Source: a virus (lineage: Duplodnaviria; Caudoviricetes). Taken from it: a stretch of DNA of 40,282 nucleotides. A model generated the notes under the pieces. It saw nothing but the letters and a program-made list of their open reading frames with translations, was not told the origin of the DNA and searched no databases. The translations under genes were made by a program, and so were the position numbers. The stretch is from positions 1-40,282 of IMG/VR virus record IMGVR_UViG_3300046779_000420; one strand, written 5' to 3'. Shown in pieces: positions 531 through 18,075 of this stretch. Position 1 is the stretch's first letter; each line of letters starts with the position of its first letter.

Positions 531-579
531 TGTTTTCTCCTGTCCTGTGCTGATAGGCGTTTGCCTACCTAGTCCCTTA

Positions 580-636
580 ATGGTGTCTTGCTCACCGCGC
601 ACTCGTCAAGTGTTTAAGGGTGTGAGTTGTCTCTCA
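580..636 (-). promoter_or_regulatory. Putative sigma70-type promoter with upstream CRP-like box
   Basis: Minus-strand TTGACG (609-604), 18 nt, CACCAT; TGTGA-N6-TCTCA at 621-636 (one mismatch to the CRP consensus). Confidence 0.4.
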
Positions 637-804
637 CGGAAATCTAAGGTCTAAGCAGAATTGGCTTAGGGTTTCAATATCTCCCTTGCACTCGTCGGGT
701 GTGGTTAGTTCTCCAACTATCCACAAGATACCCAAGAAGACCGCGAGCCAAAAGAGAAACCTACATACCGCCCGAACTCTTAAACCCCTTTGAGTAAGTG
801 CCAT
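634..804 (-). CDS. Small membrane protein (one predicted TM helix)
   Basis: Hydrophobic FLFWLAVFLGILWIVG; TAATG coupling at 804 gives start MALTQRG. Confidence 0.65.
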   Translation of the reverse strand: MALTQRGLRVRAVCRFLFWLAVFLGILWIVGELTTPDECKGDIETLSQFCLDLRFP

Positions 805-1256
805 TACGCCACCGCCTTTTCTCTTAGTGGCAAACCCGCAAGGGTGCGCAGTTCGTTCTCGTGCTTCTGCCACATCTCAGAAATCTGCTCGCGCAATTCG
901 GGTTCCACTTCGTAACTTGCTCGCCACGCTTTATTACTTAAATCAGAAATCTCTTTACGCTCTTGCTCTTGCATCTCACGCAGTTGGTTCTCTAGTTCTT
1001 TTATTTGGTCGCGTAATGCTTGAAGTTGCGGTGCGTATCGGTTAGATACTGCTTCTATCTGCTCGCCTATCCCGTCCTTGTGTGCTTTAATTCGTGCATC
1101 TTGTTCTTTGGTTGCCAAGATACCGCGTAACGGGTTAATCGTTGCCAATTGCAGGGCTTCTAGTTCTCGCACTTTGGCGCGGGTCTTTGGGTCTAACTCA
1201 TTGTATTCATTAAAGGTTATGTGGTTATAGACCTTTAGTCCTTTGATGTTTCCCAC
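804..1256 (-). CDS. Hypothetical coiled-coil protein
   Basis: GTG start with AGGAG RBS; heptad-rich E/Q/L/K sequence. Confidence 0.7.
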   Translation of the reverse strand: MGNIKGLKVYNHITFNEYNELDPKTRAKVRELEALQLATINPLRGILATKEQDARIKAHKDGIGEQIEAVSNRYAPQLQALRDQIKELENQLREMQEQERKEISDLSNKAWRASYEVEPELREQISEMWQKHENELRTLAGLPLREKAVA

Positions 1257-1269
1257 TTTGTTTTCTCCT

Positions 1270-1339
1270 GTTCGTCGTTCTAGATAATCATTTGACTATC
1301 TACCACCCCCGCCCCTTTCGGGGTAGGGGTAGTAAATCT
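1270..1339 (-). ncRNA. Two-hairpin structured RNA motif, copy 1 (unknown class)
   Basis: Hairpins at 1301-1334 (GAAA loop) and 1281-1302; G-U pairs form only on the minus strand; covarying second copy at 2032-2106. Confidence 0.65.
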
Positions 1340-1564
1340 TCAAACCGCGCTAATGATAACCGCGTCCCTGTCTTTTGTCTCGCAATACTCGCGGGCGTCT
1401 TCTACGCTTTCAAACTTAATCCGATAATCTACTTCCCGCCCAAACCATAACCGCCCCGCTACCCAATACTTACCCGCTACGCGGTATACATAATAGTATT
1501 CGTGCGCTTTTGTGGTTCCGTCTGCGGTTCTATGGAATACCGCGCCCTTATTTTCCCATTTCAT
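1340..1564 (-). CDS. Hypothetical protein
   Basis: TAATG-coupled start MKWENKG at 1564. Confidence 0.65.
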   Translation of the reverse strand: MKWENKGAVFHRTADGTTKAHEYYYVYRVAGKYWVAGRLWFGREVDYRIKFESVEDAREYCETKDRDAVIISAV

Positions 1565-1743
1565 TATTTCACCCCGCAAGCGGTTAGAAATCTCTCGCGG
1601 TCAAATCGTGGATTTTCCTGCGCTAATCGCCACGCTAATTCGCCCGCTGTGAACTTTACGCCCTGCTGTTGTTCTGCGCTTGTGCTGTTCTCTATCTGCC
1701 ATTTAATAGCGTCTGCGATTAACACGTAATCTTTACGGGTCAT
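1564..1743 (-). CDS. Small phage protein MTRKDYVLIA...NPRFDRERFLTAC (59 aa, below ORF-track cutoff)
   Basis: Translated by hand; AGGAG RBS; MTRKDY and NPRFDxxRFxxAC motifs recur in phage early proteins. Confidence 0.8.
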   Translation of the reverse strand: MTRKDYVLIADAIKWQIENSTSAEQQQGVKFTAGELAWRLAQENPRFDRERFLTACGVK

Positions 1744-1769
1744 TTTCTTGCTCTCCTGTTCGGTTCTTT

Positions 1770-1836
1770 GGTGGTGTCTGCCATCATCAGAGACGGGGAA
1801 ACACCCCCATCTGACCCCCTTTCGGGGGTTTCGGCT
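1770..1836 (-). ncRNA. Hammerhead ribozyme, type II, with pseudoknot
   Basis: Minus strand: GCC GAA A CCCCC-GAAA-GGGGG UC^ AGAUGGGG-GUGUUU-CCCCGUCU CUGAUGA U GGC AGACACC; complete core, stems I/II/III, and loop I complementary to the 3' tail AGACAC. Confidence 0.9.
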
Positions 1837-2016
1837 TTAGCGATAAGGTAATTCCTTGCCTGTGGTGGTCTGATACCAGCGAACCGCGAGACGCATAAAG
1901 TGCGGTGTGCATAATTGTTCAATATCTAAATCATCATTAAAATCTGCTTGTGGATTTGGGTTCTTGCAAAGTAAGCACTCGTCAGAGAGCCACGCGATTT
2001 CTTTGTATTCGCTCAT
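1837..2016 (-). CDS. Small CxxC-containing hypothetical protein (59 aa)
   Basis: Translated by hand MSEYKEIAWLSDECLLCKNP...ELPYR*; AGGGG RBS; stop abuts the hammerhead. Confidence 0.65.
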   Translation of the reverse strand: MSEYKEIAWLSDECLLCKNPNPQADFNDDLDIEQLCTPHFMRLAVRWYQTTTGKELPYR

Positions 2017-2031
2017 TTTTTCCCCTTTTCG

Positions 2032-2106
2032 GTTCGTCTTGCTAGGTAGTTAATCTAACCACCTACCACCCCACCCCGTCAAGCAACGGGGCGGGATAGT
2101 AAGTCT
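2032..2106 (-). ncRNA. Two-hairpin structured RNA motif, copy 2
   Basis: Hairpins at 2064-2101 and 2043-2065; compensatory changes relative to copy 1; same GACGAAC tail. Confidence 0.65.
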
Positions 2107-2298
2107 TTAGCGTGTGCGGTCGTATCGGCTAATCAAGCCCCAGGTGTCGTCTTGCTTCTTTGCTAGGTGTTCGCCTAGTTCTTGCATATATTTTGAAAGT
2201 TGCTCTAAGTTGGTCTCTGAGTTATCTATCTCATTGTGCCATTTTTCTAAAGCGATTAAAAGAAGTTCATAATCGTATTTATTAAGACGTTTTGCCAT
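2107..2298 (-). CDS. Hypothetical protein, first gene of the leftward early operon
   Basis: ATG with AAGGG RBS directly downstream of the promoter at 2343-2371. Confidence 0.7.
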   Translation of the reverse strand: MAKRLNKYDYELLLIALEKWHNEIDNSETNLEQLSKYMQELGEHLAKKQDDTWGLISRYDRTR

Positions 2299-2342: not shown

Positions 2343-2397
2343 ACAATATCAAGCGTAAATCTAGAAGTCAAGCATTTTCTTTGTGAGTTGCGTCACA
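2343..2397 (-). promoter_or_regulatory. Sigma70-type early promoter plus perfect CRP/GlxR box
   Basis: TTGACT (2371-2366), 17 nt, TATTGT (2348-2343); TGTGA-GTTGCG-TCACA at 2382-2397. Confidence 0.7.
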
Positions 2398-2828: not shown

Positions 2829-3050
2829 CGATATTTTTGTTCGGTTTTACGTTTTGAACAGGTTATCTTATATGTATAGATATTTATATATCTATACGGA
2901 GCGTCGCTCCGCCTCTTGCGGGCTACGCGACGTAATATAATATATATTAAAAATAATATATATAATATAATATATATAATATGGGGATATTCTGCCGTTT
3001 TATTGGGACGTTATAGATAGGTTTTAACGGTAGGAATAACCGACTAGAAT

Positions 3051-3227: not shown

Positions 3228-3299
3228 AGCCTCATAGTTCAATGGACAGAACGCAAGGTTACGTACCTTGAGGTAGAGGTTCAATTCCTCCTGGGGCGC
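3228..3299 (+). tRNA. tRNA-Arg(ACG), atypical
   Basis: Cloverleaf: D stem GTTC/GAAC, anticodon arm CAAGG-TTACGTA-CCTTG, T loop TTCAATT; mismatches at 1:72 (A-G) and the first T-stem pair; no encoded CCA. Confidence 0.7.
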
Positions 3300-3314: not shown

Positions 3315-5180
3315 ATGGGACGTAAGCCAGGCAAAGTGGACTTACCAAAGGGCGACGCCCAGAAGAAAGTTCTAGCCTTATTAGAACAGGGCAGTACCAT
3401 CTCAGCGGCTATGACTGCCGTCAACCGCAACGAGGTCACTTTCCGTCAATGGACAATGAACTCACCTGAGTTTAAGGAAGCAGCCGATAAAGCCCGCCTA
3501 GTGGGCAAAGGGGTCAAGGCTGACCTGAAGAACCTAAAGGATATTACCTTTGAGGAGTTCTCAGAGCAGTTCCTAGATTCTAAACTCTTTGACCATCAAC
3601 TATCCTGGATTGACCTGATTGAGGGTCGTGAGCCAAGATTCCTTCACCCTAATATGATTTATGAACCAGGGGCGGCAAACCGCGTACTTCTAAACGTACC
3701 CCCTGAGCACGCTAAGTCAACTACGATTACGATTAACTACGTAACCTACCAGATTGCCGTTAACCCTAACGTGCGAATCATTATCGTCTCTAAGACGCAA
3801 GGTATGGCTCGTAAGTTCCTTAGTGCAATTAAGACCCGCCTATCCCACCCATCTTGGATTAAGTTACAGATGGCGTTTGGACCTAATGGCGGTTACAAGG
3901 CTGATTCACCTACTTGGTCAGCAGATATGATTTATCTAGGCTCAGGAAGAGATTCTGGCGAAAAGGACCCTACGGTGCAAGCCTTAGGTTTCGGTTCTCA
4001 GATTTACGGTGCTCGCGCCGACCTGATTATCCTAGATGACGTGGTGATGAACTCAAATGCCCACGAATGGGAAAAGCAAATTGAATGGCTTCAAAAGGAA
4101 GTTATCACACGTCTGGGACGACACGGCAAACTACTTATCGTAGGAACCCGCGTCGCCCCAGTAGATTTATATAAACAGATTCGTGACGGCTCCAATTGGA
4201 CTGGTGGCAAAAGCCCCTTTACCTATTGTGCAATGCCAGCGGTTCTGGAGTTTGACGAGAAACCATTTAACTGGAAAACCCTTTGGGCTAAGACTGATAG
4301 ACCTGAAGGAGATGTGGACGAACCAGATGCCGACGGACTTTATCCGAAATGGGATGGACCCTCGCTCTTTACAAGGCGCTCTGAGGTTGCACCATCTGTC
4401 TGGGCTATGGTCTATCAACAGGAAGACGTCATTGAAGATGCCATCTTCCCCCCAGCCGCAGTCGCAGGTTGCGTCAACGGTATGCGAAAACGAGGACCAC
4501 TAAAACCTGGTACTCCAGGTCATCCTAAGCATTTGGAATCTTTTACCGTTATCGGTATAGACCCTGCTATGACTGGCGCAACTGCAGCCGTTGCTTGTAC
4601 TTTTAATAAGGCTGATGGAAAGATTTATATTCTGGATGCGGTCAATATGACTGAACCCTCCCCACAGAAGATTAGAACTCTAATTGAAGAGTGGGTACAA
4701 AAGTTCAAACCGCAAGAATTGCGTATTGAAATCAATGCTCACCAGAAAGCGTATGCCCTAGATGATGATTTGCGAAACTGGCTTTCAGCGTACGGTTGCA
4801 CGCTCAATCCTCATTTCACTGGTAAGAATAAATGGGATACCTCTTTCGGTGTCGCTTCTATGGCGACCTTATTTGGAAGCCTCAGAGACGGACGCTTCCA
4901 AGATAACAACCTTATTGAGTTGCCAAGTAACGAAGGCTCTGAAGGTCTAAAGGCTTTAGTACAGCAACTTATTACCTGGAAACCTGATACCAGAAACGCA
5001 ACAGACTGCGTGATGGCTTTATGGTTTGCAATTATCCGCATCCGCGAGATGATGCAACAAGGTTCCAACTTGCAGCGTTACACCAACAATCGTTGGTCAA
5101 CTAGAGCACAAGCCTCTAACAGAGCAAGTATTAATTTAGATGAAGCCTTTGCAGAGCAATGGCAACAGATATACGGATAG
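3315..5180 (+). CDS. terL: Terminase large subunit with N-terminal HTH-like extension
   Basis: Walker A-like LLNVPPEHAKST, Walker B ADLIILDD, coupling motif VGTR, nuclease VIGIDPA and TDCVMALW; AAGGAG RBS. Confidence 0.93.
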   Translation: MGRKPGKVDLPKGDAQKKVLALLEQGSTISAAMTAVNRNEVTFRQWTMNSPEFKEAADKARLVGKGVKADLKNLKDITFEEFSEQFLDSKLFDHQLSWIDLIEGREPRFLHPNMIYEPGAANRVLLNVPPEHAKSTTITINYVTYQIAVNPNVRIIIVSKTQGMARKFLSAIKTRLSHPSWIKLQMAFGPNGGYKADSPTWSADMIYLGSGRDSGEKDPTVQALGFGSQIYGARADLIILDDVVMNSNAHEWEKQIEWLQKEVITRLGRHGKLLIVGTRVAPVDLYKQIRDGSNWTGGKSPFTYCAMPAVLEFDEKPFNWKTLWAKTDRPEGDVDEPDADGLYPKWDGPSLFTRRSEVAPSVWAMVYQQEDVIEDAIFPPAAVAGCVNGMRKRGPLKPGTPGHPKHLESFTVIGIDPAMTGATAAVACTFNKADGKIYILDAVNMTEPSPQKIRTLIEEWVQKFKPQELRIEINAHQKAYALDDDLRNWLSAYGCTLNPHFTGKNKWDTSFGVASMATLFGSLRDGRFQDNNLIELPSNEGSEGLKALVQQLITWKPDTRNATDCVMALWFAIIRIREMMQQGSNLQRYTNNRWSTRAQASNRASINLDEAFAEQWQQIYG

Positions 5181-16809: not shown

Positions 16810-18012
16810 ATGTCTAACGCATATACAGATACCTCCAGCACCTCGCTTGGCGGTACAGTAGGTGGCGCTGGTCTAGTCCAGAAGGCGTATGACCGCCTTC
16901 TTGAGTTCGCTCTCCGCGCAGAACCACTAATTCGTTCAGTCGCAGATAAGCGCCCAGCACGCCAAGCAATGCCTGGTCAAACCGTAGTTCTACAGAAGTA
17001 CGTAGACCTTGATGCTGTAACCAGCACACTAACAGAGACAACTGACCCAGATGCAGTTGCTCTAACAACACCAACATCAGTAACTGTAACTCTTAACGAG
17101 TACGGTAACGCAGTTCTTGTAACTCGTGCACTTGAGTTATTCTCACTTGCAGATGTTGACCCAGCAATCGCTAACATCATTGCGTTCAACCTAGCAGATT
17201 CAATTGACCAGGTTGCAATGACTACCCTACGTTCAGGTTCAAACAACCTTTACTCAGGTTCAGCAACAACAGTTGCTACAGTTGCAGCATCAGACACAAT
17301 TGATTCAGCAGACATCCGCAAGGTTGTTGCTAAGTTGCGTTCTAACAAGGCGACCTACCGTCGCGGTTCAGAATACTGGGCAGGTATCCACCCAGAAGTT
17401 TCACACGACCTTCGTGCAGAAACAGGAAATATGGGCTGGAACTTCGTTCACGCACAGACTTCTCCATCAGTAGATAAGATTTGGGCTGGCGAAATTGGCA
17501 CATATGAAGGTGCTTTCTTCGTAGAATCTCCACGTCTTTACAATGCTAAGTCAGGTGCAGACCAGACAGCACTTGCTACAACAGCAGCAACAGTTGCTGG
17601 TACATCAGCAGGTTTCACACTAGGTGTTGCATCATCTTCTGTTATCGCATCTCGCGCAGAAGTTGGCGACAAGATTGCAGGAACAGGTATCGCTTCAGGC
17701 GCTAAGATTTCTGCTATCTCAACATCAGGTTCAACAACCACAATCACAGTAGACACCGCTAACACAGGCGCTGTTACTGTTTCAACAACCATCACTGTAA
17801 CTCCAGTAACTCGTGTATTCAACACAATCATTGCTGGACAACAGGCTATGGCTGAAGCAGTTGCAGAAGAGCCACACATTGTTATCGGTAACGTAACAGA
17901 TAAGTTGATGCGCTTCCGCCCAATGGGTTGGTACGGCGTACTTGGCTTCGCTGTATACCGTGACGAGGCTCTATACCGAATCACTTCAGGTTCATCAATC
18001 GCTGCTAAGTAG
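16810..18012 (+). CDS. Major capsid protein (N4-gp56-like, HK97 fold) with S/T/A-rich insertion
   Basis: VTLNEYGNAV, IHPEVSHDLR, GEIGTYEG and DKLMRFRPMGWYG motifs; strongly biased codon usage. Confidence 0.9.
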   Translation: MSNAYTDTSSTSLGGTVGGAGLVQKAYDRLLEFALRAEPLIRSVADKRPARQAMPGQTVVLQKYVDLDAVTSTLTETTDPDAVALTTPTSVTVTLNEYGNAVLVTRALELFSLADVDPAIANIIAFNLADSIDQVAMTTLRSGSNNLYSGSATTVATVAASDTIDSADIRKVVAKLRSNKATYRRGSEYWAGIHPEVSHDLRAETGNMGWNFVHAQTSPSVDKIWAGEIGTYEGAFFVESPRLYNAKSGADQTALATTAATVAGTSAGFTLGVASSSVIASRAEVGDKIAGTGIASGAKISAISTSGSTTTITVDTANTGAVTVSTTITVTPVTRVFNTIIAGQQAMAEAVAEEPHIVIGNVTDKLMRFRPMGWYGVLGFAVYRDEALYRITSGSSIAAK

Positions 18013-18064
18013 TTGATTGACTGTAGGGCTTGGACAAAGTGCCAAGCCTTATGGTCGGTTCACT
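18011..18064 (+). terminator. Long hairpin after the capsid gene (terminator, stabiliser or RNase III-type site)
   Basis: GATTGACTGTAGGGCTTGG / CCAAGCCTTATGGTCGGTT pairing with G-U pairs; no U tract; abuts the next RBS. Confidence 0.5.
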
Positions 18065-18075
18065 AAGGAGGAACT

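What the first reader, a model, noticed from the sequence alone, without database searches (positions are those of the whole stretch)
1270..2106. Two covarying copies of an unknown two-hairpin RNA motif on either side of the hammerhead
Seen: gaps 1270-1339 and 2032-2106 (minus strand) both start immediately after a stop codon with AGAYUUACUAYCCY, form a long C/G hairpin, then a second hairpin (UAGAUAGUCA/UGAUUAUCUA versus UAGGUGGUUA/UAACUACCUA, compensatory A-U to G-C), then GACGAAC and the RBS. G-U pairs form only on the transcribed strand and there is no U tract, so they do not look like terminators. A degenerate partial copy may lie at ~540-575. Inference: each non-overlapping gene junction of this operon carries a structured RNA and one of them is a clear ribozyme, so this motif is a candidate new self-cleaving RNA, nuclease processing site or protein-binding switch, and the set may form an mRNA segmentation system. 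I cannot match it to twister, pistol, hatchet or HDV-like consensus.
Basis: partly seen in the sequence, partly recalled or inferred. Interest (0 to 1): 0.85.

Follow-up and report, generated by a model that had tools for sequence, protein, structure and literature searches.

The report
Two-state cut-mark hairpins between phage genes
Two gaps between small genes of an uncultured lake phage hold a real, uncatalogued RNA that is predicted to fold either as one long rod or as two hairpins; it sits where related phages carry self-cutting hammerhead RNAs and likely marks where a host enzyme (probably RNase III) cuts the long message into single-gene pieces, which is untested.

Summary
The two copies are real (RNA folding z -5.4 and -6.1, transcribed strand) and match no Rfam family. 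The element starts one base before the upstream stop codon. Both pairings covary. GACGAAC is dispensable, and the "partial copy" at 540-575 belongs to a different, tRNA-like element. Seventeen further members in nine freshwater phage contigs share the geometry. They have a helix box (CUNYC/GRNRG) 10-11 nt after the stop, 13-17 bp from box to loop, and hairpin 2 directly behind the box. In lake contigs copy A replaces the hammerhead before the same gene, and upstream genes swap at the rod's 5' edge. Best reading (0.55): a T7-style RNase III processing site that leaves hairpin-capped products. No cut has been observed, and fit to known RNase III box rules is inconclusive. A new ribozyme is unlikely (0.06). 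This scan noted the same kind of element before on other DNA.

The parts
2043..2110 (-). Copy A. State 1: rod 2110-2055 (24 bp, base YURA stop codon paired with UYAR, 2x2 AG/GG loop). State 2: hairpin 1 plus hairpin 2 (2065-2043). Helix box CUAUC 2099-2095 with GGUGG 2070-2066.
   Evidence: homolog L240 with other flanking genes
1281..1345 (-). Copy B. State 1: rod 1345-1290 (23 bp, AG/AG loop). State 2: hairpin 1 plus hairpin 2 (1302-1281). Box CUACC 1332-1328 with GGUGG 1307-1303.
   Evidence: homolog L229
2032..2038 (-). GACGAAC spacer before the ribosome site of copy A; not part of the conserved fold
   Evidence: the equivalent 7 nt are absent in L229
1270..1276 (-). GACGAAC spacer of copy B; dispensable
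   Evidence: absent in L229; 7-nt deletion in a contig of run X5
1772..1836 (-). Type II hammerhead ribozyme in the gap between the two 59-aa genes; predicted cut after GUC at 1813
   Evidence: Rfam RF02276, 50 bits, E 1.7e-7
570..623 (-). T-loop three-way junction (tRNA-like), a third kind of junction element
   Evidence: model R1 29.4 bits, filters off; covariation in 28 relatives; about 90% identical to L004 4243-4311
552..571 (-).
2343..2397 (-). Likely operon promoter (TTGACT-17-TG-TATTGT, 2371-2343) with an upstream TGTGA-N6-TCACA palindrome (2397-2382; CRP-type box, label recalled)
2107..2298 (-). 63-aa first gene; its stop codon is the base of rod A; replaced by another gene in L240
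1837..2016 (-). 59-aa gene between copy A and the hammerhead; skipped together with the hammerhead in relatives
   Evidence: (joint 1734-2022)
1564..1743 (-). 59-aa gene (weak phrog_19432) that follows the hammerhead here and copy A in relatives
1340..1561 (-). 73-aa gene; its stop codon is the base of rod B
804..1256 (-). 150-aa coiled-coil-like gene behind copy B; replaced in L229 and in lake contigs
   Evidence: (joint 829-1277)

Best explanation
The two copies are members of a family of two-state junction hairpins that likely serve as host RNase III-type processing sites, cutting this actinophage's small-gene operon message into hairpin-capped pieces. Shown: the operon's long gaps hold a hammerhead, these two hairpins and a tRNA-like element; both pairings of the central strand covary; relatives keep a fixed geometry; copy A and the hammerhead are exchanged before the same gene. 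Predicted: the rod (about 11 positions below the hairpin-1/hairpin-2 boundary and at least 13 bp above it) forms first during transcription. Inferred: RNase III binds the rod, the conserved helix box helps place it, and a cut in the 3' arm near the box leaves the upper 13-17-bp hairpin on the upstream mRNA's 3' end. The released strand then refolds as hairpin 2, capping the downstream mRNA's 5' end just before its ribosome site. Because the element carries its own stop codon and ribosome site, it would also let small genes be swapped between fixed junctions.
For: Position: copy A sits in the first gap of the operon, where several relatives carry a hammerhead; 22 of 40 terminase-linked loci (near-duplicates included) have at least one hammerhead-like pattern in this operon. 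Exchange: joint 1734-2022 in runs X3 and X5 (sides 83 and 70 nt) and contig L240 put copy A directly before the gene that follows the hammerhead here. Boundaries: foreign upstream genes join at 2110 (X3, X5, L240) and 1343 (X5), the 5' edge of the rod. Structure: rod 97.6% paired, 4 of 21 pairs changed on both sides; hairpin 2 100% paired, 3 of 9 pairs changed on both sides (4 sequences, 2 lineages). Family: a sequence-blind helix scan of 955 junction-like stops gave 17 distinct hits; 12 carry the box at stop+10/11, hairpin 2 starts 0 nt behind the box in 12 of 12 and beats shuffles at p<0.05 in 10 of 12. With a floor of 8 bp, all 19 freshwater members have 13-17 bp from box to loop, above the 11-bp minimum of E. 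coli RNase III (PMC1540722, section 9). Stop-paired rods measure 22-26 bp in 13 of 15 junctions, against an ideal substrate of about 22 bp (PMC3867540, passages). The sense strand folds better in 19 of 19, and only 0-4 U follow the rod. Hairpin 2 uses the rod's 3' arm, so it forms too late to be a classical antiterminator but suits a product cap (inference). T7 early mRNA has five RNase III signals, and single cuts leave stabilising 3' hairpins.
Against: No cut or RNA end was observed. The box does not clearly fit published RNase III rules. With the cut at the hairpin boundary, proximal-box position 2 is C-G in 19 of 19, which inhibits the E. coli and Aquifex enzymes. Other registers fit some positions and break others, and the E. 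coli UA/UG distal box is not matched. The 19 members fall into a few subtypes, so they are not 19 independent events, and parts of the box were imposed by the filter. In Streptomyces phage relatives the stop is paired in only 10 of 25 junctions, hairpin 2 beats shuffles in 2 of those 10, and the box is absent. The box's distance from the stop also equals a terminating ribosome's footprint (recalled), which a non-nucleolytic switch would explain as well. Host RNase III is assumed from general knowledge; the host is inferred, not identified.
Confidence: 0.55

Rival explanations
1. U-less intrinsic terminator, pause or 3'-exonuclease barrier that grades expression along the operon without an endonucleolytic cut; a ribosome at the stop codon would open the base and allow read-through.
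For: GC-rich hairpin right at a stop codon; state 2 is by definition a V-shaped structure, and U-less terminators are reported for actinophages (PMC3013805, passages); blocking 6-9 nt from the stop removes the rod's base.
Against: Purified mycobacterial polymerase did not stop without a U-tract (PMC3993855, passages); 0-4 U after the rod. A terminator does not explain a conserved box inside the stem, hairpin 2, or exchange with a hammerhead. No promoter-like site was called between copy A and the next genes, apart from one weak hit inside a gene at 1381.
Confidence: 0.17
2. Ribosome-sensing or protein-binding switch: the terminating ribosome flips the rod into two hairpins, which tunes stability or translation of the next gene or binding of a phage or host protein, with no fixed cut.
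For: States lie within 4.5 kcal/mol in 19 of 19 and are near-isoenergetic in the four close copies; blocking stop+9 gives hairpin 2 a probability of 1.00. A stop triplet lies 10-11 nt before the box in 18 of 19, and the anti-stop pairs in register in 14 of 18.
Against: Neither state hides the ribosome site, so no direct output is visible; the stop may sit at the base only because of genome compaction.
Confidence: 0.13
3. The junctions are kept mainly as DNA homology blocks for swapping gene cassettes; the RNA fold is secondary.
For: Flanking genes are replaced while the motif stays; copy A and the hammerhead share a GAACCGAA tail at the exchange point.
Against: Non-standard pairs are nearly all G-U on the transcribed strand, and the sense strand folds better in 19 of 19. 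Sequence diverges while pairing is kept, which lowers DNA homology.
Confidence: 0.07
4. A new class of small self-cleaving ribozyme.
For: Occupies hammerhead slots and is exchanged with one; no Rfam match.
Against: No conserved unpaired core or pseudoknot: the loop and base vary freely in the family and only helical pairs are kept. GACGAAC is dispensable. The three-way junction of copy A's minimum-energy fold loses its outer pair in L240 and is not copy B's favoured fold.
Confidence: 0.06

Closest known systems
RNase III processing signals of phage T7 early polycistronic mRNA (five sites; PMC3867540, passages)
   Same: Two-turn imperfect hairpins between the genes of a phage small-gene operon; no U-tract; a single cut would leave a 3' protective hairpin.
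   Different: Here the stop codon is built into the base, the 3' arm has a conserved alternative hairpin, the helix box (C-G, U-R, N-N', U-G, C-G) differs from the E. coli optimum, the host is likely an actinobacterium, and the sites alternate with hammerheads and tRNA-like elements. Cleavage is untested.
Clustered hammerhead ribozymes flanking variable prophage genes (Perreault et al. 2011, PMC3088659, passages; Rfam RF02276)
   Same: Same genomic slot and same proposed outcome (single-gene mRNAs from a long transcript; flanking genes not constant); one such ribozyme lies between the two copies.
   Different: The motif has none of the hammerhead core and no Rfam match, and it would need a protein to be cut.
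I- and V-shaped U-less terminators of actinobacteria and actinophages (WebGeSTer, PMC3013805, passages)
   Same: Hairpin(s) directly after a stop codon with few uridines; state 2 meets the V-shape definition.
   Different: Internal to an operon and directly before a ribosome site; conserved box within the stem; two mutually exclusive folds; whether such terminators work at all is disputed (PMC3993855, passages).
Junction hairpins of Streptomyces phages of Beephvirinae (Immanuel3, FlowerPower, Manuel, WRightOn; seen here, unannotated)
   Same: Closest cultured kin by terminase (about 45%); the reversed small-gene operon has long junction hairpins, with the stop codon paired at the base in 10 of 25.
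   Different: No sequence match and no box; hairpin 2 is short and beats shuffles in only 2 of 10.

Membership tests
Bacterial RNase III substrate (T7-type processing site) | About two helical turns of double-stranded RNA | tested here: met
   24 and 23 bp rods; 22-26 bp in 13 of 15 stop-paired junctions
Bacterial RNase III substrate (T7-type processing site) | At least 11 bp between cut and terminal loop | tested here: met
   13-17 bp from box to loop in 19 of 19, provided the cut lies at or within 2 bp of the box base (assumed)
Bacterial RNase III substrate (T7-type processing site) | Proximal and distal box preferences (A-U/U-A at pb2 and pb4; UA/UG distal box in E. coli) | tested here: inconclusive
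   Register unknown; each register tried fits some and breaks other positions; no actinobacterial rules were found
Bacterial RNase III substrate (T7-type processing site) | Enzyme-dependent cut with 5'-monophosphate and 3'-OH ends | not testable with these tools
   No RNA reads available; needs an assay
Hammerhead ribozyme (RF02276 and clan) | CUGANGA and GAAA core with three stems | tested here: not met
   Absent from both copies; no Rfam hit at E<=10
Other Rfam 15 ribozyme and motif families (twister, twister sister, pistol, hatchet, HDV-like and others held in Rfam) | Match to a covariance model | tested here: not met
   No hit over the copies; in L259, L277, L285, L291 and L255 only one chance miRNA hit at E 0.16
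Small self-cleaving ribozyme (any class) | Conserved unpaired catalytic residues and tertiary pairing | tested here: not met
   Conservation confined to helical pairs in 19 members; 3' GACGAAC dispensable
Small self-cleaving ribozyme (any class) | Protein-free site-specific cleavage | not testable with these tools
   Needs an in vitro assay
Canonical intrinsic terminator | U-tract directly after the hairpin | tested here: not met
   (3 and 4 U in the 9 nt after the rods)
V-shaped U-less terminator (WebGeSTer class) | Second hairpin starting at the end of the first, few U | tested here: met
   State 2: hairpin 2 starts 0 nt after the box in 12 of 12; a shape class only
V-shaped U-less terminator (WebGeSTer class) | RNA polymerase releases the transcript there | not testable with these tools
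   Needs in vitro transcription or 3'-end mapping

The most novel reading that the evidence does not exclude
A translation-gated processing signal: the ribosome stopping at the built-in stop codon flips the cuttable rod into two hairpins, so cutting depends on whether the upstream cassette gene is being translated. One phage operon then uses three interchangeable cutting devices (ribozyme, RNase III rod, tRNA mimic) as plug-in adapters for swapping small genes.
Probability: 0.2. Interest if true: 0.75.

Novelty: new variant of a known kind. Interest (0 to 1): 0.5.

Why it matters
Why phages put hammerheads between small genes is an open question. Here a protein-dependent-looking hairpin takes the hammerhead's place before the same gene in natural populations, which supports the view that the purpose is to make capped single-gene mRNAs by whatever cutter is at hand. 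The family gives sharp, testable predictions (19 natural variants, fixed geometry, a helix box). If RNase III is the cutter, the box would be a first look at substrate rules of the enzyme from freshwater actinobacteria. Cultured Streptomyces phages with similar junction hairpins offer a working test system. The mechanism itself, if RNase III, is the T7 one.

Tried and rejected
Pattern scans of viral contigs built on the two copies gave only chance hits: 3 loci, 2, 24 (inspected), and 119 loci of an estimated 390 stretches (the 25 most stable of 120 matches inspected). The genome collection gave 11 loci, none homologous. The metagenome scan gave 2 true homologs of 13, both from one assembly. 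No relative of the 73-aa gene was found in viral contigs. blastn against annotated phages found only hammerheads or chance hits. Model R2 found nothing beyond its 4 training sequences and their antisense echoes in 64 sources, 577 kb, so the wider family was recognised by geometry and box, not by sequence score. No RNA holder was listed among sequencing runs, and run X18 does not cover the motifs; neither bears on expression. Depth differences between motif and gene bins were not used as evidence; most joints there have short sides and only 1734-2022 and 829-1277 are relied on. The phage itself has no PF14622 RNase III match; none of the 18 proteins tested in Pfam is a ribonuclease. Rejected: the three-way junction of copy A's minimum-energy fold as the conserved structure; GACGAAC as a core; 540-575 as a copy; hairpin 2 as a classical antiterminator; the hammerhead-like pattern in L277 (inside a coding region). 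Literature: searches showed no paper describing this family (listings only). The Fremin et al. 2023 supplements (PMC10690425) gave no hit in 6 files, but files 1, 2 and 4 were not searched, so the family may be among their candidates. For Weinberg et al. 2017 (PMC5737381) only main-text passages were seen, not its supplements.

Full report
Setting. The window is a whole 40.3-kb phage record with terminase at 3315, portal, major head, a WhiB-like regulator and a sigma-like factor. It occurs in freshwater runs, and its closest cultured kin by terminase are Streptomyces phages at about 45% identity. An actinobacterial host is therefore inferred. The finding lies in a minus-strand operon of eight small, mostly unknown genes (1-2298) behind a promoter-like site at 2371-2343. 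Its four long gaps hold copy A, a type II hammerhead (RF02276, 50 bits), copy B, and a fourth element.

The observation. Both copies are as described and fold far better than shuffles on the transcribed strand (z -5.40 and -6.14). Neither matches Rfam. Three details need correction. GACGAAC is missing in homolog L229 and in a contig of run X5. The stretch at 540-575 is the leader hairpin of a T-loop three-way junction at 570-623 (missed with default filters). And the fold has two states.

Two states. Between A and B the changes in the central strand are matched on both partners. The rod is 97.6% paired with 4 of 21 pairs changed on both sides, and hairpin 2 is 100% paired with 3 of 9. These counts rest on 4 sequences of 2 lineages, so the shuffle figures are not probabilities. 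L240 adds two changes in the 3' arm of hairpin 2 that keep pairing and one that opens its last A-U pair. The states are near-isoenergetic (rod probability 0.22, 0.56, 0.71, 0.98), the rod is the fold of the shorter prefix, and blocking 9 nt from the stop forces hairpin 2.

Population evidence. Contigs of three lake runs laid on 1-2800 show foreign upstream genes joining at 2110 (X3, X5) and 1343 (X5), the base just before each stop codon and the 5' edge of the rod; L240 breaks at the same place. Joint 1734-2022 (X3, X5) and L240 place copy A directly before the gene that follows the hammerhead in the window. Joint 829-1277 and L229 replace the gene behind copy B. Among terminase relatives, 22 of 40 loci carry hammerhead-like patterns in this operon, often in the first gap, together with the T-loop element; none of those scanned carries A or B.

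A wider family. L259, fetched through a protein and not through the motif, has three junction hairpins of the same design, and its clade has more. A sequence-blind scan of 955 junction-like stops gave 26 hits, 17 distinct. Twelve of these have the box at stop+10 or +11, hairpin 2 starts 0 nt behind it in all 12, and it beats shuffles in 10; the 5 without a box were set aside. A box-anchored scan with an 8-bp floor, which also required hairpin 2 and a ribosome site, gave 20 distinct hits: 19 freshwater members (A, B and 17 in nine contigs) with 13-17 bp from box to loop, and one Streptomyces phage hit with 9 bp. Box pairs in the 19 are C-G 19; U-G 14 and U-A 5; A-U 13, U-A 3, G-U 2 and C-G 1; U-G 16 and C-G 3; C-G 19. 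A stop triplet lies 10-11 nt upstream in 18, the anti-stop pairs in register in 14 of 18, the sense strand folds better in 19, and the states lie within 4.5 kcal/mol. The members fall into a few subtypes and part of the box was imposed by the filter. No Rfam family matches. Four cultured Streptomyces phages have long junction hairpins in the equivalent operon, with the stop paired in 10 of 25 and hairpin 2 significant in 2 of those 10, but without the box.

How it most likely works. The rod has the size of an RNase III substrate (about 22 bp; T7 early mRNA has five such signals; single cuts leave 3' hairpins: PMC3867540, passages). Its upper helix never falls below the 11-bp minimum (PMC1540722, abstract, section 9 part 1 and figure legends). 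Sequence kept inside a helix at a fixed distance suggests a protein reading double-stranded RNA (inference). Hairpin 2 can form only from the rod's 3' arm, after the polymerase has passed any stop point, so it suits a cap on the downstream product (inference). A cut in the 3' arm near the box would give what the hammerhead gives: a hairpin on each new end. Against this, no RNA end was seen, and the box does not cleanly fit E. coli or Aquifex proximal-box rules in any register tried (PMC3074117, passages). I put this reading at 0.55, a U-less terminator or decay barrier at 0.17, a ribosome or protein switch without a cut at 0.13, a DNA swap linker alone at 0.07, and a ribozyme at 0.06.

Known and new. 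Hammerhead clusters around variable prophage genes are published (PMC3088659, passages), and RNase III punctuation of a phage early message is the T7 model. The element works like a T7 site on present evidence; membership is not established, because cleavage is untested and the box test is inconclusive. The family itself was not found in Rfam or in the listed paper searches, though unsearched supplements may hold it. My RNase III reading was recorded before the look-ups. Earlier notes of this scan describe the same kind of element, and tRNA-like elements, on other DNA; none is a sequence look-alike, and they are not counted as support. Ribosome footprint length and the CRP-box label are recalled.

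Verdict. A real, uncatalogued, two-state junction RNA family; most likely a new variant of a known kind of processing signal. Interest 0.5.

Noticed in passing
window 570-623 (-); e.g. L007 4596-4647, L062 3944-3995, L253, L254: T-loop three-way junction (7-bp outer stem, short hairpin, 7-nt NNCRAGA-type loop, then ACNA and a leader hairpin) in many relatives. 7 of 10 consensus pairs change on both sides in 28 sequences; no Rfam hit in 15 loci and no ARAGORN call in 8 loci. Looks like the top half of a tRNA, a candidate RNase P/Z cut mark (inference).
   Followed up: partly
window 2382-2397 and 622-637 (-); many relatives: TGTGA-N6-TCACA-type palindrome (CRP-type box, label recalled) before the operon promoter and, in a looser form, before one subtype of the T-loop element, whose first hairpin often holds TTGACA or TTTACA: that subtype may also be an internal promoter.
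   Followed up: no
L255-L258, reversed small-gene operons of Streptomyces phages Immanuel3, FlowerPower, Manuel, WRightOn: Unannotated long hairpins at most gene junctions; in several the loop of a short alternative hairpin holds the triplet that pairs with the upstream stop codon. A culturable test system.
   Followed up: partly
window 18007-18070 (+): 23-bp hairpin after the major head gene, with the stop codon paired at its base and the 3' arm running into the next ribosome site; no box.
   Followed up: no
L004-L083 upstream of terminase: CTTAAGACAGGAG, often within the palindrome GTCTTAAGAC, precedes most start codons of this operon in the hammerhead clade; a likely shared swap point for cassettes.
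   Followed up: no
window 3228-3299 (+): tRNA-like gene just before the terminase (Rfam 47.4 bits), also in L034 but not in the other 14 loci scanned.
   Followed up: no
Streptomyces phages R4, phiELB20, Thestral and others (hits H1-H20): Matches to the window's hammerhead region, mostly in unannotated gaps.
   Followed up: no
window 2865-2982: A/T-rich palindromic tract between the operon promoter and the terminase, conserved in relatives; possible origin or genome-end signal.
   Followed up: no
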